From: Shigella phage ESh17
DNA: 64,000 nucleotides
Sequence record: ON528727
Reading direction: 5' to 3' (one strand)
Shown here piece after piece: positions 16,424-21,173 of this stretch. Position 1 is the stretch's first letter; the number at the start of each line of letters is the position of its first letter. The translations under genes were made by a program, and so were the position numbers. The notes beneath the pieces are model-generated. The model saw only the letters and a program-made list of their open reading frames with translations. It had not been told where the DNA came from and made no database searches.

Positions 16424-16618
16424 ATGTTAGGTTATCAAGCACGAGTAAAAGAAGAATACGATCAATTAATGCTCAAAATTAATGCACTGAGTAAATTTTT
16501 AGAAAGCGCAAAGTTTCTAACAGTTAGTGCAGTTGAGCAAGAACTGCTACTTTCACAGTTCATCTCAATGAAATCTTATGCTGAATGTCTAGAGAAAAGA
16601 ATTGCACAATTCAAATAA
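16424..16618 (+). CDS. hypothetical protein (64 aa) bracketed by two hairpins
   Basis: ORF track. Confidence 0.45.
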   Translation: MLGYQARVKEEYDQLMLKINALSKFLESAKFLTVSAVEQELLLSQFISMKSYAECLEKRIAQFK

Positions 16619-16656: not shown

Positions 16657-16986
16657 ATGATTTATTGTATGAATATCGGTGATTCCGACATAAAAGAGAT
16701 TAAACTGCACGGAAACCATCACGCTAATATTGTGTACTGCAATAAATTTGAGTTTGGTCACGAAAAACTTGGGTTTCTTTACTGCAATGATATTATAGTC
16801 ATGGATAAAAAGGAACTCGATGAACTTGATCGTGAGTCTTTAGATGAAAATGACCGAATTTATTACGGCACTCTTAAAGTATATAACGCTTATCTCAGCG
16901 GTAAAAAGGAAAGTCTAAATGCAGAAAACGAATCCGGGTTTACAGAGACTATTTCAGATTCCGACATTTACCCTATCGAACAGTGA
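16657..16986 (+). CDS. hypothetical protein (109 aa)
   Basis: ORF track; 3' end overlaps denB start by 68 nt in another frame. Confidence 0.4.
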   Translation: MIYCMNIGDSDIKEIKLHGNHHANIVYCNKFEFGHEKLGFLYCNDIIVMDKKELDELDRESLDENDRIYYGTLKVYNAYLSGKKESLNAENESGFTETISDSDIYPIEQ

Positions 16987-17476
16987 CTTGACTAGTGAAA
17001 TGAAGGTCAAAATTGCTGATACAGCAAGATACTCTTTAAAACAAAACCCGAACCAGGATAAAGCAGAAGTTATCGAAAGATGTCGTATCGCGGTGTACGC
17101 AGAGTTTTTTGTAGCAGATTGGCTAAGCGGGTATGTTAACAAAGGCCAAGAGGATGTTAATGACCCGTATACATACGCATGGGATGTATTGGCGCATCCA
17201 AGATACTGCGGGCTTCGTGTAGAAGTTAAGACACATCAAACTGACTCACGTTGGATTTCTGTAACAACAGGATGCAGCGGAGAGTATCCATACGGTTCTG
17301 GAATAAATCTAGGGCCTATTCTGAATCATCAGGTCGCTGACTGTATAATTATATTCAACACTAAAGAAATTCATCCAGGTGTCATCCAGTACACTCCGAA
17401 GTTCATCGGTGATAGAGAAGACCTTCGTAAGGTTGTAAGAAAAAGCAACTACAACGGATGGTATCTTTCCATTTAA
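16919..17476 (+). CDS. denB: endonuclease IV (DenB)
   Basis: 185 aa equals T4 DenB length; position downstream of rIIB. Confidence 0.6.
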   Translation: MQKTNPGLQRLFQIPTFTLSNSDLTSEMKVKIADTARYSLKQNPNQDKAEVIERCRIAVYAEFFVADWLSGYVNKGQEDVNDPYTYAWDVLAHPRYCGLRVEVKTHQTDSRWISVTTGCSGEYPYGSGINLGPILNHQVADCIIIFNTKEIHPGVIQYTPKFIGDREDLRKVVRKSNYNGWYLSI

Positions 17477-17494
17477 AAAAATTTTCACAAAACG

Positions 17495-17524
17495 GTTTAC
17501 ATACCACAAGGACTGTGGTACTAT
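17495..17524 (+). promoter_or_regulatory. T4 early-type promoter (repeated cassette)
   Basis: aaaaaaattttcacaaaacGGTTTAC...tggTACTATacaactatc. Confidence 0.6.
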
Positions 17525-17551
17525 ACAACTATCAGCTACGGAGGAGTAAAA

Positions 17552-17815
17552 ATGAAATTTAAATTTTATTACGCTAAACATAAAATAACTGATGAGTTTG
17601 TGTCAGTTGAATATTCTAGCGATGATGAAGGTATGATTTATACTCGCTTGGGATTATCGCATTGGGAGTCTGATACGCCTTATTTTTCAACTCCCGAAGA
17701 AATTACACGCTTAGTTAATGGTCATATGAATGACCACTGGTGTGTAATTCTTTCAGATAGTCTTAAAGCGGCTATTAATAGTAATGAAATGAAAATCGCT
17801 GAGATTGAACTATGA
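17552..17815 (+). CDS. hypothetical protein (87 aa)
   Basis: ORF track. Confidence 0.5.
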   Translation: MKFKFYYAKHKITDEFVSVEYSSDDEGMIYTRLGLSHWESDTPYFSTPEEITRLVNGHMNDHWCVILSDSLKAAINSNEMKIAEIEL

Positions 17816-17901
17816 GTTCATTGTGGTGGTGGTGTTTTGTTTGGTTAATTAGTATTCCAGTAATTTGTTTAACATTTACTTTTGTGATGAGGTTATTATG
17901 A
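17812..17901 (+). CDS. small hydrophobic peptide (29 aa)
   Basis: Manual translation MSSLWWWCFVWLISIPVICLTFTFVMRLL; ATGA coupling. Confidence 0.35.
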   Translation: MSSLWWWCFVWLISIPVICLTFTFVMRLL

Positions 17902-17996
17902 AAATTTTGAATTCTGTACTTATTGCTTGTGCGTGGTGGGTTGCACAGGTTTCGGCAGTGGTGATTGGTATTCACATTTATTACGAATATTTTTAA
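17898..17996 (+). CDS. small transmembrane peptide (32 aa)
   Basis: Manual translation MKILNSVLIACAWWVAQVSAVVIGIHIYYEYF. Confidence 0.35.
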   Translation: MKILNSVLIACAWWVAQVSAVVIGIHIYYEYF

Positions 17997-18003
17997 AAAA
18001 GTT

Positions 18004-18033
18004 GTTTACAAGACTGTTCCTCTGCGGTACTAT
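18004..18033 (+). promoter_or_regulatory. T4 early-type promoter (repeated cassette)
   Basis: gtttac 18004-18009, tactat 18028-18033, leader caactatcaactacggagg. Confidence 0.6.
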
Positions 18034-18061
18034 ACAACTATCAACTACGGAGGAACACAAA

Positions 18062-18175
18062 ATGAAAAAGATTGTTAAAGCTATATGGAATGTAGTTATA
18101 ATACTAGTAGTTTTGAGTATATTCCCAATCGTTTTAATGATTGATGTATTAAACGTTTACTTTGGATTTATGTGA
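18062..18175 (+). CDS. small transmembrane peptide (37 aa)
   Basis: MKKIVKAIWNVVIILVVLSIFPIVLMIDVL...; track ORF 17927 would span the promoter. Confidence 0.4.
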   Translation: MKKIVKAIWNVVIILVVLSIFPIVLMIDVLNVYFGFM

Positions 18176-18182
18176 GGAAAAT

Positions 18183-18380
18183 ATGAAGCGTAAACGCAGT
18201 GCTTTTACATTTATTGAATGGTTTTTCGATAATATTTTTCCGGCTTTATTCATTTTCATGCTGATTTTTGCCTTAGGTTCAGTTGTAGTTGGAATCTATT
18301 TGATGGCGGTAGTCGGAATGGATATTCATCAAAATGGTTTAAAATCCGTAGTTGAAACAATTTGGAATGGTGTAAAATGA
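18183..18380 (+). CDS. small transmembrane protein (65 aa)
   Basis: ORF track trimmed to ATG after SD gaggaaaat. Confidence 0.45.
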   Translation: MKRKRSAFTFIEWFFDNIFPALFIFMLIFALGSVVVGIYLMAVVGMDIHQNGLKSVVETIWNGVK

Positions 18381-18487
18381 TGAATTTATTAAACATTTGG
18401 TTTTATATTCTTATGTTTTACATTGGTGCAAATTTCCCATATTGGATGGGATGGTCAACAACTGCGTTTGGATTTTATACTCCTTGA
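18377..18487 (+). CDS. small hydrophobic peptide (36 aa)
   Basis: Manual translation MMNLLNIWFYILMFYIGANFPYWMGW... Confidence 0.35.
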   Translation: MMNLLNIWFYILMFYIGANFPYWMGWSTTAFGFYTP

Positions 18488-18495
18488 GGTGAATT

Positions 18496-18711
18496 ATGAA
18501 AAGTTTTAAAGATGTAAAAGTTGGTGAAATTTTCTGTTTAGATAACGGTGATCAGTTAATTCGTATTTCACCTCTTAAGAGCACTAGCGAGAAACCGACA
18601 GTTAATGCTACTTTAGCAAATAACAGTAATGAACGTTTCTGTATTGAAAATGATACTGAAACTTATACTGTAGAAGAATTCTGGGAATTGAGCGTCGACT
18701 GCGACGATTAA
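18496..18711 (+). CDS. hypothetical protein (71 aa)
   Basis: ORF track. Confidence 0.5.
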   Translation: MKSFKDVKVGEIFCLDNGDQLIRISPLKSTSEKPTVNATLANNSNERFCIENDTETYTVEEFWELSVDCDD

Positions 18712-18771
18712 TTTAATGGCCGTATGTATTCATGCGGCCTTGGAGTAGAAAATAATTTAGAGGAAATTAAT

Positions 18772-19230
18772 ATGAAATATATGACTGTTACTGATCTGAA
18801 TAATGCAGGCGCTACTGTTATTGGTACAATCAAGGGCGGTGAGTGGTTTTTGGGAACTCCACATAAAGACATTTTATCTAAACCTGGATTTTACTTTTTA
18901 GTGAGTAAATTAGATGGTCGTCCATTTAGTAATCCATGCGTGTCCGCACGATTTTATGTAGGTAATCAGCGTTCTAAGCAAGGATTCAGTGCGGTTCTAA
19001 GTCATATTCGTCAGCGTCGGTCTCAGCTTGCGCGTACTATTGCAAATAACAATGTTCCATACACAGTATTTTATCTGCCTGCTTCTAAGATGAAACCTCT
19101 GACGACAGGATTTGGTAAAGGTCAGTTAGCTTTGGCATTTACTCGTAATCATCATTCTGAGTATCAAACACTTGAAGAAATGAACCGTATGTTGGCTGAT
19201 AACTTTAAATTTGTTTTGCAGGCATATTAA
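18772..19230 (+). CDS. ndd: nucleoid disruption protein Ndd
   Basis: 151 aa from MKYMTVTDL; size and position as T4 Ndd. Confidence 0.8.
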
Positions 19231-19310
19231 TGAGTAATTTCCATAATGAACATGTGATGCAGTTCTATCGTAACAATCTTAAAACCAAAGGCGTCTTCGG
19301 ACGCCAGTGA
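19230..19310 (+). CDS. stp: Stp peptide (26 aa)
   Basis: [26 protein letters not shown] matches remembered T4 Stp. Confidence 0.8.
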
Positions 19311-19317
19311 GGAAAAT

Positions 19318-19476
19318 ATGAATATCGCAAAATTATTAGGAGTTATTTCATTTATTTGTTGGATAGTAGCATGTGTTTTAACTATCTGTATCGATGCTAG
19401 CAGTGTGTTTTCACAAGCTTTAGCCCAGGGTATGTGTGCATATTTAACATTTGTGTTGTTATCTACTAATGATTAA
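19318..19476 (+). CDS. small membrane protein, Ac-like (52 aa)
   Basis: Hydrophobic 52-aa ORF at the T4 ac position. Confidence 0.5.
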   Translation: MNIAKLLGVISFICWIVACVLTICIDASSVFSQALAQGMCAYLTFVLLSTND

Positions 19477-19609
19477 GAAAATCTTGGGCTATTCATTAGC
19501 CCTTGCTACTTTATTGGTAGCACTATATTACGGAGTAATGTTCGGATTAATTCAAGTCGTGCTTTTCATTTCTGATGTTATTATGGCACTACATTCACTA
19601 GTATGGTAA
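19469..19609 (+). CDS. small transmembrane peptide (46 aa)
   Basis: Manual translation MIKKILGYSLALATLLVALYYGVMFGLIQ... Confidence 0.35.
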   Translation: MIKKILGYSLALATLLVALYYGVMFGLIQVVLFISDVIMALHSLVW

Positions 19610-19613
19610 ATTT

Positions 19614-20942
19614 ATGCAACTGAATAATCGCGATTTAAAAAGTATCATTGATAATGAAGCATTGGCTTATGCTATGTACACGGTTGAAAATCGTGCTATC
19701 CCAAATATGATTGATGGATTTAAGCCAGTTCAACGATTTGTTATTGCTCGAGCTCTTGATTTGGCGCGAGGAAATAAAGATAAGTTTCACAAACTTGCTT
19801 CTATTGCAGGTGGTGTAGCAGACCTTGGATATCATCATGGTGAAAACTCTGCGCAAGACGCAGGTGCTTTGATGGCTAACACTTGGAATAATAACTTTCC
19901 TCTGTTAGATGGTCAAGGAAATTTCGGTTCTCGTACCGTTCAAAAAGCAGCAGCAAGTCGTTATATTTTTGCTCGTGTAAGTAAAAATTTCTATAACGTA
20001 TATAAAGATACTGAATATGCTCCGGTACATCAAGATAAAGAACACATTCCGCCTGCTTTCTATTTGCCTATTATTCCTACTGTTCTTCTTAATGGTGTTT
20101 CCGGTATTGCAACTGGTTATGCAACTTACATTCTTCCTCATAGTGTTTCTTCTGTCAAGAAAGCTGTACTACAAGCTCTTCAAGGAAAGAAAGTAACTAA
20201 ACCGAAGGTAGAATTCCCAGAATTTCGTGGTGAAGTCGTTGAGATTGACGGTCAATATGAAATTCGTGGAACATATAAGTTTACTTCACGAACTCAAATG
20301 CATATCACTGAGATTCCGTATAAGTATGATCGTGAAACTTATGTGAGTAAAATCTTAGACCCACTTGAAGATAAAGGCTTCATTACATGGGATGATGCTT
20401 GCGGTGAGCATGGTTTTGGATTCAAAGTTAAATTCCGTAAAGAATATTCTTTGAGCGATAATGAAGAAGAACGCCATGCAAAAATTATGAAAGACTTCGG
20501 GTTGATTGAGCGTCGTTCTCAGAATATTACCGTCATTAATGAGAAAGGAAAGCTGCAAGTTTATGATAACGTAGTCGATTTAATTAAAGACTTTGTTGAA
20601 GTTCGTAAAACTTATGTCCAAAAACGAATTGATAACAAAATTAAAGAAACTGAATCAGCTTTTCGTTTAGCCTTTGCCAAGGCACATTTCATTAAGAAAG
20701 TAATTTCAGGTGAAATTGTTGTACAGGGTAAAACTCGTAAAGAACTGACCGAAGAACTTTCGAAAATCGATATGTATTCTTCTTATGTTGATAAACTAGT
20801 TGGAATGAATATTTTTCATATGACTTCCGACGAAGCAAAGAAACTTGCTGAAGAAGCTAAAGCTAAAAAAGAAGAAAACGAATATTGGAAAACTACTGAT
20901 GTAGTTACCGAATACACCAAAGATTTAGAGGAAATCAAATGA
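19614..20942 (+). CDS. 52: DNA topoisomerase II medium subunit (gp52)
   Basis: 442 aa; GyrA-like; matches T4 gp52 size and position. Confidence 0.9.
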   Translation: MQLNNRDLKSIIDNEALAYAMYTVENRAIPNMIDGFKPVQRFVIARALDLARGNKDKFHKLASIAGGVADLGYHHGENSAQDAGALMANTWNNNFPLLDGQGNFGSRTVQKAAASRYIFARVSKNFYNVYKDTEYAPVHQDKEHIPPAFYLPIIPTVLLNGVSGIATGYATYILPHSVSSVKKAVLQALQGKKVTKPKVEFPEFRGEVVEIDGQYEIRGTYKFTSRTQMHITEIPYKYDRETYVSKILDPLEDKGFITWDDACGEHGFGFKVKFRKEYSLSDNEEERHAKIMKDFGLIERRSQNITVINEKGKLQVYDNVVDLIKDFVEVRKTYVQKRIDNKIKETESAFRLAFAKAHFIKKVISGEIVVQGKTRKELTEELSKIDMYSSYVDKLVGMNIFHMTSDEAKKLAEEAKAKKEENEYWKTTDVVTEYTKDLEEIK

Positions 20943-21088
20943 GTCCATTCATTGGTATCACAAGCGCTGCATTAGTATCTGGTAGCATTTTACTGGCGGG
21001 TTTAGGCGTTGTCCCAGCCGTAGCAGGAGGTCTTCTTGCGTTCGGAATTCAACGTGTTATCATGACAGTTATCACAGTCATGCAGTAA
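20939..21088 (+). CDS. small transmembrane peptide (49 aa)
   Basis: Manual translation MSPFIGITSAALVSGSILLAGLGVVPAVAGG... Confidence 0.4.
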   Translation: MSPFIGITSAALVSGSILLAGLGVVPAVAGGLLAFGIQRVIMTVITVMQ

Positions 21089-21093
21089 TTTTA

Positions 21094-21119
21094 GGGAGAG
21101 CCGAGGCTCTCCCTTTTTT
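21094..21119 (+). terminator. intrinsic terminator
   Basis: gggagagccgaggctctccc + tttttt. Confidence 0.75.
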
Positions 21120-21143
21120 ATTTTAAAAATTTTTCACAAAACG

Positions 21144-21173
21144 GTTTACAACCAAAGCATACTGTGGTACTAT
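21144..21173 (+). promoter_or_regulatory. T4 early-type promoter (repeated cassette)
   Basis: gtttac 21144-21149, tactat 21168-21173. Confidence 0.6.

What the first reader, a model, noticed from the sequence alone, without database searches (positions are those of the whole stretch)
17812..18487. Cluster of five very small hydrophobic peptide genes between denB and ndd
Five consecutive ORFs of 29-65 aa (17812..17901, 17898..17996, 18062..18175, 18183..18380, 18377..18487) each encode one predicted transmembrane helix rich in W, F and I. They are translationally coupled (ATGA overlaps) and driven by two copies of the repeated early promoter cassette. Short early membrane peptides in T-even phages are typical superinfection-exclusion, host-takeover or anti-defence candidates, and most are uncharacterised. 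stp (19230..19310), ac (19318..19476) and two more TM peptides (19469..19609, 20939..21088) lie nearby.
Basis: seen in the sequence. Interest (0 to 1): 0.45.

Follow-up and report, generated by a model that had tools for sequence, protein, structure and literature searches.

The report
T4 ndd.2–ndd.6 small membrane peptides
The five tiny hydrophobic genes are real, conserved, early-expressed membrane-peptide genes of T4-type phages, long annotated as ndd.6, ndd.5, ndd.4, ndd.3/2a and ndd.2, and nobody yet knows what they do.

Summary
The window is a Tequatrovirus, 100% identical to Shigella phage ESh18 over 17480-18720. The five ORFs are T4 genes ndd.6, ndd.5, ndd.4, ndd.3+ndd.2a (one 65-aa gene) and ndd.2, between denB and ndd. 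All are already annotated and sit in PHROG or Pfam families of unknown function.

All five are genuine coding genes:
- ndd.5, ndd.3/2a and ndd.2 have pN/pS of 0.08-0.14 in the annotated frame only.
- ndd.6, ndd.4, ndd.2 and ndd.3/2a have homologs at the same locus in other Tevenvirinae genera. Many identical residues there are encoded by different codons.

Two early-promoter cassettes, Shine-Dalgarno sites and ATGA overlaps are present. In T4 the transcripts are classed early, but shotgun proteomics did not detect the proteins. Deletions covering the cluster are viable.

Function remains unknown. My best inference is that they are accessory single-pass inner-membrane peptides that bind membrane proteins.

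Small corrections emerged:
- The T4 reference splits the 65-aa gene through a 1-nt gap.
- The legacy "outer membrane" and "periplasmic" product names are unsupported.
- ndd.6 homologs are unannotated in Mosigvirus and Dhakavirus.

Verdict: already known, modest interest.

The parts
17496..17539 (+). Early promoter cassette 1: TTTACA-N17-TACTAT plus the conserved ACAACTATCAGCTAC leader. It drives orf87, ndd.6 and ndd.5.
   Evidence: Promoter scan. The 25-nt core is repeated 3 times in the window against 0 expected. It matches the PST/T4 PeSL promoter consensus TTTACW-N17-TAYWAT of Comeau 2014.
17552..17815 (+). orf87, an acidic soluble 87-aa protein (phrog_2390). It is the first cistron, and its stop overlaps the ndd.6 start (ATGA). 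It is absent from T4 and T2.
   Evidence: Strong GGAGG Shine-Dalgarno site, -9.5 kcal/mol. Three very divergent alleles among Tequatrovirus, pN/pS 0.46.
17812..17901 (+). ndd.6 homolog, 29 aa (28 in T4; this window carries one extra Trp codon). Single hydrophobic helix with a central SIPxIC motif.
   Evidence: phrog_8851, E=1e-14. Intact in 17 of 18 related loci. Homologs of 46% identity in Mosigvirus SF and Dhakavirus MX01, and a TTG-start homolog in Kanagawavirus CIP9. Essentially no Shine-Dalgarno site (-2.7 kcal/mol), so translation probably depends on coupling.
17898..17996 (+). ndd.5 homolog, 32 aa, single hydrophobic helix, ATGA-coupled to ndd.6.
   Evidence: phrog_5011, E=4e-26. 9 of 11 variable sites fall at codon position 3; pN/pS is 0.08 in frame and at least 2.6 or undefined in the other frames. 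No convincing homolog outside Tequatrovirus.
18005..18048 (+). Early promoter cassette 2: TTTACA-N17-TACTAT plus the ACAACTATCAACTAC leader. It drives ndd.4, ndd.3/2a, ndd.2 and ndd.1.
18062..18175 (+). ndd.4 homolog, 37 aa (Pfam Phage_T4_Y16N). N-terminal MKKxxK, then a TM helix with the conserved VLxIFPxVxxID motif.
   Evidence: phrog_3098, E=2e-21. A profile search found 27 protein clusters, all carrying PF26889; every named one is from a T4-like phage. K, N, P, I and D are invariant across 29 distinct sequences. 62-70% amino-acid identity to MX01, CIP9 and L026, with about half of the identical residues encoded by different codons.
18183..18380 (+). Single 65-aa gene equivalent to T4 'ndd.3' plus 'ndd.2a' (Pfam DUF7248). 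Basic N-terminus, amphipathic helix, 28-residue hydrophobic span, amphipathic C-terminal helix.
   Evidence: PF23906, 71.9 bits against a cutoff of 27. pN/pS 0.10, with 21 of 28 variable sites at position 3. Intact in 16 of 18 loci and in re-sequenced T4. A 76-aa homolog sits at the same locus in a distant T4-like contig. AlphaFold2 gives one helix over residues 6-64, pLDDT 89.7.
18380..18487 (+). ndd.2 homolog, 35 aa from the conserved ATG (36 aa from 18377). Uncharged and aromatic-rich, with a GxNxPYWxGW motif.
   Evidence: phrog_4135, E=6e-24. pN/pS 0.14. Homologs in Marfavirus (46%), Kanagawavirus and L026. RB51-type phages keep only the second ATG.
18496..18711 (+). ndd.1, a 71-aa acidic soluble protein and last cistron of the second unit. 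It is not one of the five peptides but is co-transcribed with them.
   Evidence: phrog_2183. pN/pS 0.12. The protein is detected early in T4 proteomics.
18718..18739 (+). Stable 9-bp hairpin in the ndd.1-ndd spacer. It has no T-run. It may be an RNA-stability or PeSL stem-loop element.
   Evidence: Centroid structure with MFE -17.8 kcal/mol, z = -3.2 against shuffles.

Best explanation
The cluster is two short immediate-early transcription units of a T4-type phage.

- Unit 1: early promoter, then orf87, ndd.6 and ndd.5.
- Unit 2: early promoter, then ndd.4, the 65-aa ndd.3/2a gene, ndd.2 and ndd.1.

SHOWN HERE
- The five ORFs are genuine protein-coding genes under purifying selection.
- Each is dominated by one hydrophobic helix.
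- The units are tightly packed and partly coupled.
- Four of the five families recur at the denB-ndd locus in other Tevenvirinae genera, in shuffled order and in different subsets.

SHOWN BY OTHERS IN T4
- The transcripts are classed early.
- The region can be deleted without loss of viability.

INFERRED MECHANISM
- Within the first minutes of infection the peptides insert into the inner membrane as single-pass (bitopic) micro-proteins. For ndd.4, ndd.5 and ndd.3/2a the N-terminus is probably cytoplasmic, by the positive-inside rule.
- They then act stoichiometrically rather than enzymatically. They would pack their conserved intramembrane motifs against partner membrane proteins of the host: SIPxIC in ndd.6, VLxIFPxVxxID in ndd.4, GxNxPYWxGW in ndd.2.
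- This would modulate or neutralise envelope functions that matter only on some hosts. Candidate targets are membrane-bound defence or abortive-infection effectors, or transporters.
- Each peptide would be an independent accessory module, not a subunit of one obligate complex.

CONFIDENCE
- About 0.9 that these are real, early, small membrane-peptide genes.
- About 0.45-0.5 for the partner-binding, host-directed mechanism. The overall figure of 0.5 reflects the mechanism.
For: GENE IDENTITY
- 100% DNA identity to Shigella phage ESh18 and 95% to T4 and RB51; synteny with T4 ndd.6-ndd.2.
- PHROG hits for all five. Pfam DUF7248 for the 65-aa gene and PF26889 for the ndd.4 family.

CODING SELECTION
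- pN/pS is 0.08, 0.10 and 0.14 for ndd.5, ndd.3/2a and ndd.2, with variable sites concentrated at codon position 3 in the annotated frame only.
- Cross-genus homologs show 46-70% amino-acid identity at 52-69% nucleotide identity. Between 4/13 and 18/40 identical residues are encoded by different codons.

SPECIFIC CONSTRAINT BEYOND HYDROPHOBICITY
- In 29 distinct ndd.4 sequences K6, N10, P22, I27 and D28 are invariant. V17, L18, I20, F21 and V24 are nearly so. Positions 11-16 vary freely among hydrophobic residues.

MODULARITY
- Gene order and content differ between genera.
- Natural knock-outs and a natural fusion exist: a T2 nonsense codon, the T4-reference frameshift, an a51 deletion in ndd.2, and a Sf25 ndd.4::2a fusion.

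EXPRESSION SIGNALS
- Promoter cassettes.
- Shine-Dalgarno energies and coupling.
- T4 and T2 keep an 8-codon ORF, MKI(A/V)EIEL*, that still overlaps the Shine-Dalgarno-less ndd.6 start by ATGA.

PUBLISHED T4 DATA
- Transcripts are classed early.
- Dispensability: the sa-delta-9 deletion and the engineered mutant T4_583L.

CONTEXT
- The 64-aa neighbour denB.1 matches the Sequestin family (PF21825), which includes an experimentally shown T4 anti-Thoeris sponge of 64 aa.
- rIIA, rIIB and stp are also adjacent, so the locus is rich in host-interaction genes.

STRUCTURE
- AlphaFold2 models the 65-aa protein as one long helix.
Against: - No experiment addresses any of the five peptides.
- The proteins were not detected in the T4 time-course proteome. 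That is expected for 3-7 kDa hydrophobic peptides with few tryptic sites, but translation therefore remains unproven.
- No partner is known, and membrane insertion and topology are predictions only.
- ndd.4 and ndd.6 show too little variation within Tequatrovirus for an informative pN/pS (0.59 and 0.33 on 9 and 7 variable sites). Their case rests on the cross-genus comparison.
- Part of the similarity between the ndd.6-like ORFs of CIP9 and L026 lies over the -35 box of the next promoter.
- ndd.5 has no convincing homolog outside Tequatrovirus.
- Guilt by association with neighbouring anti-defence genes is weak evidence.
Confidence: 0.5

Rival explanations
1. Lipid remodelling. One or more of the peptides causes the T4-specific stimulation of phosphatidylglycerol synthesis after infection, for example by binding a phospholipid-synthesis enzyme in the inner membrane.
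For: The sa-delta-9 deletion removes 52.1, ac, stp, ndd, ndd.1-ndd.6 and denB. It abolishes post-infection stimulation of phospholipid and phosphatidylglycerol synthesis and halves phage yield. The responsible protein is made within 5 min of infection (Kutter 2018). The peptides are early and predicted to be membrane-located.
Against: The same paper reports two further results. The partly overlapping rII-delta-DD2 deletion also loses phosphatidylglycerol stimulation. So do phage deficient only in dCTPase, endonuclease IV (denB) and Alc. This points to denB or a metabolic side effect rather than the peptides. No similarity to any lipid-metabolism protein was found.
Confidence: 0.1
2. Superinfection exclusion. 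The peptides alter the envelope so that later-arriving T-even phages cannot inject DNA, as Imm and Sp do.
For: Immediate-early expression and predicted membrane location. The known T4 exclusion protein Imm is a small membrane protein (my own knowledge).
Against: T4 exclusion is accounted for genetically by imm and sp, which lie elsewhere in the genome (my own knowledge). There are no family hits to either. Several phages lack some of the peptides.
Confidence: 0.1
3. Membrane-active toxins. The peptides depolarise or permeabilise the inner membrane, like type I toxins or holins, and so contribute to host shut-off.
For: Their size and single hydrophobic helix resemble Hok, TisB or Ibs-type toxins (my own knowledge). 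Kutter 2018 notes that many small T4 immediate-early genes are host-lethal when cloned. The neighbouring small membrane protein Ac changes dye permeability (my own knowledge).
Against: T4 needs an energised membrane for its roughly 25-min cycle, so strong early depolarisers would be counter-productive. Early timing argues against a holin role. The conserved Pro, Asp and Asn motifs point to specific packing rather than generic membrane damage. There are no hits to toxin or holin families.
Confidence: 0.1
4. Phage-internal role. The peptides anchor or regulate the phage's own membrane-associated machinery (rII proteins, Ndd, topoisomerase or replication complexes, lysis-inhibition proteins) rather than host proteins.
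For: They are interleaved with membrane-associated phage functions such as rIIB, ndd and ac. Two similar small TM genes, 52.1 and motA.1, bracket topoisomerase gene 52 with overlapping start and stop codons.
Against: Acinetobacter phage Kimel has rIIB, denB, ndd, 52 and motA but no peptide genes between denB and ndd. Other genera carry different subsets. Core phage machinery therefore does not require them.
Confidence: 0.12
5. Not functional proteins. The ORFs are chance hydrophobic ORFs in T-rich DNA, or are translated only to keep ribosomes on the mRNA for downstream genes.
For: Hydrophobic small ORFs are frequent by chance in this genome: 24 on the + strand, some inside real genes. The region is 40% T. 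The proteins were not detected by mass spectrometry.
Against: There is frame-specific purifying selection. Motifs are conserved at the amino-acid level across genera despite synonymous and nucleotide divergence. The ORFs are retained when gene order is shuffled.
Confidence: 0.03

Closest known systems
Phage T4 genes ndd.6, ndd.5, ndd.4, ndd.3/ndd.2a and ndd.2 (NC_000866 T4p275-T4p270)
   Same: Same locus between denB and ndd, same order and strand, 93-100% protein identity, same promoters. These are orthologs.
   Different: - The window has an intact 65-aa gene where the T4 reference has a 1-nt gap that creates 'ndd.3' (out of frame) and 'ndd.2a' (internal ATG).
- The window has one extra Trp codon in ndd.6.
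- It lacks the T4-specific upstream ATG used for the 42-aa ndd.4 annotation.
- It carries orf87 upstream, which T4 has reduced to an 8-codon remnant.
Other small membrane proteins of the same T4 early region: Ac (51-52 aa), gp52.1 (46 aa, DUF7396), MotA.1 (49 aa)
   Same: Same size class, one or two hydrophobic helices, early expression, overlapping start and stop codons with neighbours, dispensable.
   Different: No detectable sequence similarity to the five peptides; they fall in separate PHROG and Pfam families. Only ac has a phenotype, acridine sensitivity or resistance.
Bacterial small inner-membrane regulatory proteins such as AcrZ, MgrB, MgtS, CydX and KdpF (my own knowledge)
   Same: 30-50-aa single-pass peptides that work by binding a larger membrane protein through the TM helix. 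This is the working model proposed here.
   Different: No homology and no known partner. The phage peptides are restricted to T4-like phages in searches of 5.8 and 1.8 billion proteins. The resemblance is one of kind only.
PeSL cassettes (promoter-early stem-loop) of T4-type phages, Arbiol 2010 and Comeau 2014
   Same: The two promoters match the PST/T4 PeSL promoter consensus TTTACW-N17-TAYWAT. Comeau 2014 uses the ndd.4/ndd.5 exchange between T4 and PST as an example of PeSL-mediated shuffling. The shuffled gene order between genera fits this.
   Different: No stem-loop lies immediately upstream of the two promoters inside the cluster. Only the copy at 21093-21173 has the terminator-hairpin plus promoter arrangement.
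T4 Imm and Sp superinfection-exclusion proteins
   Same: Early, small, envelope-located accessory proteins of the same phage (my own knowledge).
   Different: No family match, a different locus, and Imm and Sp are larger (83 and 97 aa).

Membership tests
T4 ndd.2-ndd.6 orthologous gene set | Position between denB and ndd, same strand and order | tested here: met
   Annotation of ESh18, RB51 and T4 aligned to the window.
T4 ndd.2-ndd.6 orthologous gene set | High sequence identity of each product to the T4 protein | tested here: met
   93-100% identity in the translated alignment. PHROG hits at E = 1e-14 to 3e-30.
Pfam DUF7248 (PF23906), 65-aa gene | Score above the curated gathering threshold | tested here: met
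   71.9 bits against a cutoff of 27, covering residues 6-63.
Pfam Phage_T4_Y16N (PF26889), ndd.4 | Match to the family model | tested here: inconclusive
   The local Pfam copy returned no hit for the 37-aa peptide. All 27 homolog clusters found with the ndd.4 profile carry precomputed PF26889, including P0007, whose first 37 residues are identical to the window peptide. Membership is therefore very likely but was not scored directly.
Bacterial lipoprotein, outer-membrane or periplasmic protein (legacy T4 product names) | Cleavable signal peptide or lipobox followed by a mature exported domain | tested here: not met
   The peptides are 29-37 aa with one hydrophobic span and nothing left over to export. 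ndd.5 has LIAC at residues 8-11, but only 8 residues lie between K2 and the Cys. That is too short for a lipoprotein signal, and the more hydrophobic part follows the Cys. This is read from the sequence directly.
Holins | Late expression and a membrane-lesion function that controls lysis | tested here: not met
   The genes sit behind early promoters and T4 transcripts are classed early. No holin family hit. Lesion formation cannot be tested here.
Type I toxin-like membrane peptides | Toxicity on expression; antisense RNA control | not testable with these tools
   No Rfam hit in the region. Toxicity needs an experiment.
Superinfection exclusion (Imm/Sp type) | Homology to Imm or Sp, or a demonstrated block of secondary infection | tested here: not met
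   No Pfam or PHROG match to those families. The phenotype was not testable.
Known anti-defence or defence protein families | Profile match to a described family | tested here: not met
   No hits in PADLOC, NCBIfam or PDB sequences. Only the neighbour denB.1 matches the Sequestin family.
PeSL regulatory cassette | Early promoter of consensus TTTACW-N17-TAYWAT | tested here: met
   TTTACA-N17-TACTAT at 17496-17524 and 18005-18033; consensus taken.
PeSL regulatory cassette | Stem-loop directly upstream of the promoter | tested here: not met
   No terminator-like hairpin lies before either promoter in the cluster. One is present before the third copy, at 21093-21114.

The most novel reading that the evidence does not exclude
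The denB-ndd interval is a shufflable battery of intramembrane inhibitors. Each micro-peptide would use its conserved TM motif to neutralise a different membrane-embedded host factor. Examples of such factors are TM effectors of abortive-infection or signalling defence systems, or efflux and transport proteins. The subset a phage carries would then tune its host range. This would extend the anti-defence island that already contains rII, the Sequestin-family gene denB.1 and stp to a new class of counter-defence acting within the membrane.
Probability: 0.2. Interest if true: 0.65.

Novelty: already known. Interest (0 to 1): 0.3.

Why it matters
T4 is the best-studied virulent phage, yet about half of its small early genes, including these five, have no assigned function.

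If the peptides proved to be intramembrane inhibitors of host defence effectors or transporters, two things would follow. They would define a new mode of counter-defence, and they would explain why this hyperplastic locus is reshuffled between genera.

As it stands, the result is mainly confirmatory, with some annotation fixes:
- one 65-aa gene instead of ndd.3 plus ndd.2a;
- a 37-aa ndd.4;
- misleading "outer membrane" and "periplasmic" product names;
- unannotated ndd.6 homologs in Mosigvirus, Dhakavirus and Kanagawavirus.

Tried and rejected
LITERATURE
- Searches for the gene names, UniProt names (Y16N and related), T4 ribosome profiling, and small membrane proteins of Tevenvirinae found no functional study of any of the five peptides.
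- The CRISPRi-ART preprint and the CRISPR-escape paper do not mention them in the main text.
- Miller 2003 (PMC150520) is not held in the library.

DATABASE SEARCHES WITH NO USEFUL HIT
- NCBIfam, PADLOC and PDB sequence searches: nothing meaningful.
- Rfam: nothing in the cluster.
- The exhaustive search of 1.84 billion representatives with the 65-aa protein gave only three phage relatives (P0029, P0022 and the 25-aa fragment P0030) plus low-complexity matches in giant proteins.
- The search for homologous proteins refuses queries under 40 aa. ndd.6, ndd.5 and ndd.2 therefore could not be searched alone. ndd.4 was searched as an alignment.

STRUCTURE
- AlphaFold2 of the 65-aa protein gives a single long helix. 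This is consistent with the model but uninformative, so no fold search was run.

HYPOTHESES REJECTED OR DOWNGRADED
- Lipoprotein or outer-membrane reading of the legacy product names: rejected from the sequence.
- The phosphatidylglycerol link: considered and downgraded, because denB-deficient phage also lose the effect.
- Positional analog of ndd.5 in Mosigvirus SF (L022 2150-2257): not demonstrably homologous.
- The T4 and T2 mini-ORFs are not independent evidence. T2 looks like the T4 arrangement plus an inserted ORF.
Full report
IDENTITY OF THE REGION

Window 17480-18720 is 100% identical to Shigella phage ESh18 (Tequatrovirus). It matches 504 phage records, nearly all T-even phages of enterobacteria, at 88-97% identity. 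In the direction of early transcription the annotated gene order is rIIA, rIIB, denB.1, (DUF7418 ORF), denB, orf87, ndd.6, ndd.5, ndd.4, ndd.3/2a, ndd.2, ndd.1, ndd, stp, ac, 52.1, 52, motA.1, motA.

The five ORFs of the finding are therefore the T4 genes ndd.6 (17812-17901), ndd.5 (17898-17996), ndd.4 (18062-18175), ndd.3+ndd.2a (18183-18380) and ndd.2 (18377 or 18380 to 18487). All five are already annotated as hypothetical proteins in the ESh18 record.

OBSERVATION CHECK

All five ORFs are present with ATG starts.

- Four have a very hydrophobic 19-residue core, with a Kyte-Doolittle mean of 2.2-3.05.
- ndd.2 is weaker (1.29), has no charged residue at all, and 13 of its 35 residues are aromatic.
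- Hydrophobic small ORFs are common by chance in this AT-rich genome. There are 24 on the + strand of the window, including out-of-frame ORFs inside gene 52, against about 3 in mononucleotide shuffles.
- Hydrophobicity alone is therefore not evidence of a gene. The local density (4 in 0.68 kb against about 0.25 expected at the window's own rate) and, above all, the conservation data are what count.

EXPRESSION SIGNALS

Promoters. Two promoter-like sites, TTTACA-N17-TACTAT, lie at 17496-17524 and 18005-18033.

- Each is followed by the same leader. The 25-nt core GTGGTACTATACAACTATCAACTAC occurs three times in the window (17515, 18024, 21164) against none expected.
- A looser search finds about a dozen T4-type early promoters on the + strand of the window.
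- The consensus equals the PST/T4 'PeSL' promoter consensus TTTACW-N17-TAYWAT. Comeau et al. 2014 used an ndd.4/ndd.5 exchange between T4 and PST to illustrate cassette-mediated shuffling.

Translation starts.

- The first cistron of each unit (orf87, ndd.4) has a strong GGAGG Shine-Dalgarno site (-9.5 kcal/mol). It contains GGAG, the motif cleaved by the T4 RegB nuclease in early mRNAs (my own knowledge).
- ndd.5, ndd.3/2a and ndd.1 have moderate GAGG sites.
- ndd.2 is weak.
- ndd.6 has essentially none (-2.7 kcal/mol). Its ATG overlaps the stop of orf87 (ATGA), so it probably depends on termination-reinitiation.

The upstream mini-ORF. T4 lacks orf87 but keeps an 8-codon ORF, MKIAEIEL*, behind the same Shine-Dalgarno site, still overlapping the ndd.6 ATG. 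T2 has another ORF inserted at that position but keeps MKIVEIEL* in the same arrangement. These two cases are probably not independent.

It does not hold for ndd.5/ndd.4 (65 nt with a promoter) or ndd.4/ndd.3-2a (7 nt).

ARE THEY REAL GENES?

Within Tequatrovirus. I aligned 18 related loci (T4, T2, RB51, five IMG/VR contigs and ten phages at 88-95% DNA identity). The five peptides are 93-100% identical in protein, whereas the neighbouring orf87 falls into three very divergent alleles.

Variable sites by codon position, and pN/pS:

| Gene | Sites at position 1 / 2 / 3 | pN/pS in frame |
|---|---|---|
| ndd.5 | 1 / 1 / 9 | 0.08 |
| ndd.3/2a | 5 / 2 / 21 | 0.10 |
| ndd.2 | 5 / 3 / 13 | 0.14 |

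In the other two frames the ratios are near or above 1. ndd.6 (7 variable sites) and ndd.4 (9 variable sites) vary too little to decide.

Across genera. The decisive evidence for ndd.6 and ndd.4 comes from other genera. In the denB-ndd interval of other phages I found the following.

- ndd.6-like ORFs:
  - Mosigvirus SF: MSSKMWIGIWFLSIPMICIIFSIALRYL. It is ATGA-coupled to the orf87 homolog and unannotated.
  - Dhakavirus MX01: MWCLIWMACIPVICVCFSLLLWKLV, also unannotated.
  - Kanagawavirus CIP9: MSKFWCFIWILSIPLVCILMSVYIHYAA, with a TTG start.
  - The metagenomic T4-like contig L026 carries a weaker candidate.
- ndd.4 homologs in MX01, Marfavirus, CIP9 and L026.
- ndd.2 homologs in Marfa, CIP9 and L026.
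- A 76-aa ndd.3/2a homolog in L026.

Pairwise identities are 46% (ndd.6), 41-70% (ndd.4), 31-46% (ndd.2) and 66% (ndd.3/2a). A third to three quarters of the identical residues are encoded by different codons.

Family breadth and constraint.

- A profile search of 5.8 billion proteins with the ndd.4 alignment returned 27 clusters. All carry Pfam PF26889 (Phage_T4_Y16N). Every named one comes from a T4-like phage of Escherichia, Shigella, Enterobacter, Edwardsiella or Klebsiella; the unnamed ones are metagenomic.
- Over 29 distinct sequences K6, N10, P22, I27 and D28 are invariant and the stretch VLxIFPxVxxID is nearly so. The first half of the helix varies freely among hydrophobic residues. 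This is more constraint than a passive membrane anchor needs.
- An exhaustive search of 1.84 billion representatives with the 65-aa protein found only three phage relatives, including P0029 and P0022.
- ndd.5 is the only peptide without a convincing homolog outside Tequatrovirus.

Caveat. In CIP9 and L026 the last codons of the ndd.6-like ORF overlap the -35 box of the next early promoter, so part of their mutual similarity is regulatory.

MODULARITY AND DISPENSABILITY

Content and order differ between genera.

| Phage or genus | Peptide genes present |
|---|---|
| Tequatrovirus | 6, 5, 4, 3/2a, 2 |
| Mosigvirus | 6 (plus an unrelated small ORF) |
| Dhakavirus | 6, 4 |
| Marfavirus | 4, 2 |
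| Kanagawavirus | 6, 4, 2 |
| L026 | 6?, 4, orf87, 2, 3/2a (in that order) |
| Acinetobacter phage Kimel | none; denB abuts ndd |

Natural lesions occur:

- a nonsense codon (G45*) in the 65-aa gene of a T2 record;
- a 10-nt deletion at the ndd.2 start in phage a51;
- a GG insertion altering the ndd.6 C-terminus in L007;
- an in-frame ndd.4::ndd.2a fusion in Shigella phage Sf25.

The classical T4 deletion sa-delta-9 (52.1 through denB) is viable at about 50% yield. An engineered T4 mutant, T4_583L, lacks ndd.3-ndd.6, stp, ac and 52.1. The peptides are thus independent accessory modules.

ANNOTATION CORRECTIONS

- The T4 reference NC_000866 lacks one G right after ATGAA of the 65-aa gene. This creates 'ndd.3' (26 aa, read in the wrong frame) and 'ndd.2a' (40 aa from an internal ATG).
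  - Sixteen of 18 related loci have the intact 65-aa frame, as do re-sequenced T4 records (MT984581, KJ477685, OL964735, OZ035787).
  - The distant L026 homolog conserves the N-terminal FIEWFFNNIFPALFI segment in that frame.
- The 42-aa T4 annotation of ndd.4 starts at an ATG created by a T4-specific C-to-T change inside the Shine-Dalgarno site. The conserved ORF is 37 aa.
- The 69-aa forms in some records run through the promoter.
- The product names 'outer membrane protein' and 'periplasmic protein' have no basis in the sequences. The peptides are too short to carry a cleavable signal plus a mature domain, and the LIAC of ndd.5 sits only 8 residues after K2.

WHAT IS KNOWN EXPERIMENTALLY

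- Wolfram-Schauerte et al. 2022 class the ndd.2, 2a, 3, 4, 5 and 6 transcripts as early. They did not detect the proteins, while Ndd and Ndd.1 are early proteins. Non-detection is expected for such peptides and is not evidence of absence.
- Kutter et al. 2018 state that the products of ndd.1-ndd.6 are unknown. They report that sa-delta-9 abolishes the post-infection stimulation of phosphatidylglycerol synthesis. However, an overlapping rII deletion has the same defect, as do phage deficient only in dCTPase, endonuclease IV (denB) and Alc. The peptides are therefore not specifically implicated.
- No paper in the held library addresses any of the five.

MECHANISM

Shown: real, conserved, early-promoter-driven genes for 3-7 kDa peptides, each dominated by one hydrophobic helix. 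AlphaFold2 gives one helix over residues 6-64 for the 65-aa protein. They have family-specific intramembrane motifs, modular distribution and dispensability.

Inferred: they insert into the inner membrane within minutes of infection and act by helix-helix binding to membrane proteins, most plausibly host factors that matter only on some hosts.

The genomic context leans the same way.

- The adjacent 64-aa denB.1 product matches PF21825 (E = 4e-19). This is the Sequestin family, and the 64-aa T4 member was shown to be an anti-Thoeris sponge.
- rIIA and rIIB counter Rex exclusion and stp interacts with the Prr restriction and anticodon-nuclease system. These roles come from the T4 annotation notes and my own knowledge.

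This is guilt by association only. I put about 0.45-0.55 on the 'accessory intramembrane binder of host proteins' model. The rivals are a phage-internal anchor, lipid remodelling, superinfection exclusion and a depolarising toxin, at about 0.1 each. Non-functional ORFs rate about 0.03.

COMPARISON AND NOVELTY

The cluster is orthologous to annotated T4 genes and to existing PHROG and Pfam families of unknown function. No similarity was found to defence, anti-defence, toxin, holin, Imm/Sp or solved-structure families, and there is no RNA family in the region.

The finding is therefore already known as a feature. What remains open is function. The small new points are the annotation corrections, the unannotated cross-genus ndd.6 homologs, the conserved ndd.4 motif, and the retained mini-ORF that keeps ndd.6 coupled.

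Interest is modest (0.3). It would be higher only if an intramembrane counter-defence role were demonstrated.

Noticed in passing
window 16424-16618 (+): The 64-aa denB.1 ORF matches Pfam PF21825 (crAss001_48, since renamed Sequestin) at E = 4e-19. A 2025 preprint shows that the 64-aa T4 member (Y16O/Y16Q) is a 3'cADPR sponge that defeats type I Thoeris. The ESh18 record labels this ORF 'endonuclease', which looks wrong.
   Followed up: partly
window 16657-16986 (+): A 109-aa ORF (DUF7418, phrog_2237) lies between denB.1 and denB. T4 and RB51 lack it at this place, but MX01, Marfa, CIP9 and L026 have a counterpart. Its 3' end overlaps the long (185-aa, T4-style) start of denB at 16919. ESh18 annotates denB from 17000.
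   Followed up: partly
window 17552-17815 (+); L003 (T4), L019 (T2): orf87 (phrog_2390) exists as three very divergent alleles within Tequatrovirus (pN/pS 0.46). In T4 it is reduced to an 8-codon ORF, MKIAEIEL*, by a deletion between two AAATGAAA repeats. In T2 an unrelated 68-aa ORF is inserted ahead of the same mini-ORF.
   Followed up: yes
L003 (T4 NC_000866), equivalent to window 18188: The T4 reference genome lacks one G after ATGAA of the 65-aa gene, producing the annotated 'ndd.3' and 'ndd.2a'. Re-sequenced T4 (MT984581 and others) has the intact gene. This is either a sequencing error or a strain-specific frameshift.
   Followed up: yes
L022 2067-2153 (Mosigvirus SF); L021 1689-1766 (Dhakavirus MX01); L024 2013-2099 (Kanagawavirus CIP9): ndd.6 homologs of 25-28 aa are present but unannotated in these genomes. 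The CIP9 copy appears to start at TTG, overlapping the upstream stop codon.
   Followed up: yes
L024 2068-2105; L026 2432-2465: In CIP9 and L026 the last codons of the ndd.6-like ORF (…MSVYIH…) are encoded by the -35 region (GTTTACAT) of the next early promoter. Coding and regulatory constraints therefore overlap there.
   Followed up: partly
P0022 (Shigella phage Sf25 gp120); L019 1101-1235 (T2); L012 (phage a51); L007 2440-2450: Four natural variants were seen. Sf25 has an in-frame fusion of ndd.4 (residues 1-30) to the C-terminal half of ndd.3/2a. A T2 record has a G45 stop in the 65-aa gene. Phage a51 has a 10-nt deletion at the ndd.2 start. L007 has a GG insertion that changes the ndd.6 C-terminus.
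   Followed up: partly
window 18718-18739 (+): A 9-bp hairpin (GGCCGUAUG/CAUGCGGCC) lies in the ndd.1-ndd spacer. It folds better than shuffled sequence (z = -3.2) and has no T-run. Its role is unknown; mRNA stability or processing is possible.
   Followed up: partly
window 19469-19609 and 20939-21088 (+): Two further small TM genes, 52.1 (DUF7396) and motA.1, bracket topoisomerase subunit gene 52. The 52.1 stop is 4 nt before the gene 52 start, and the motA.1 ATG overlaps the gene 52 stop (ATGA). A possible link between these peptides and the membrane association of the topoisomerase was not examined.
   Followed up: no
window 17458-17562 (+) and 19230-19310 (+): The ESh18 record annotates a 34-aa ORF that spans the early promoter upstream of orf87, which is probably spurious. 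It omits the 26-aa stp gene, which is intact in the window.
   Followed up: no
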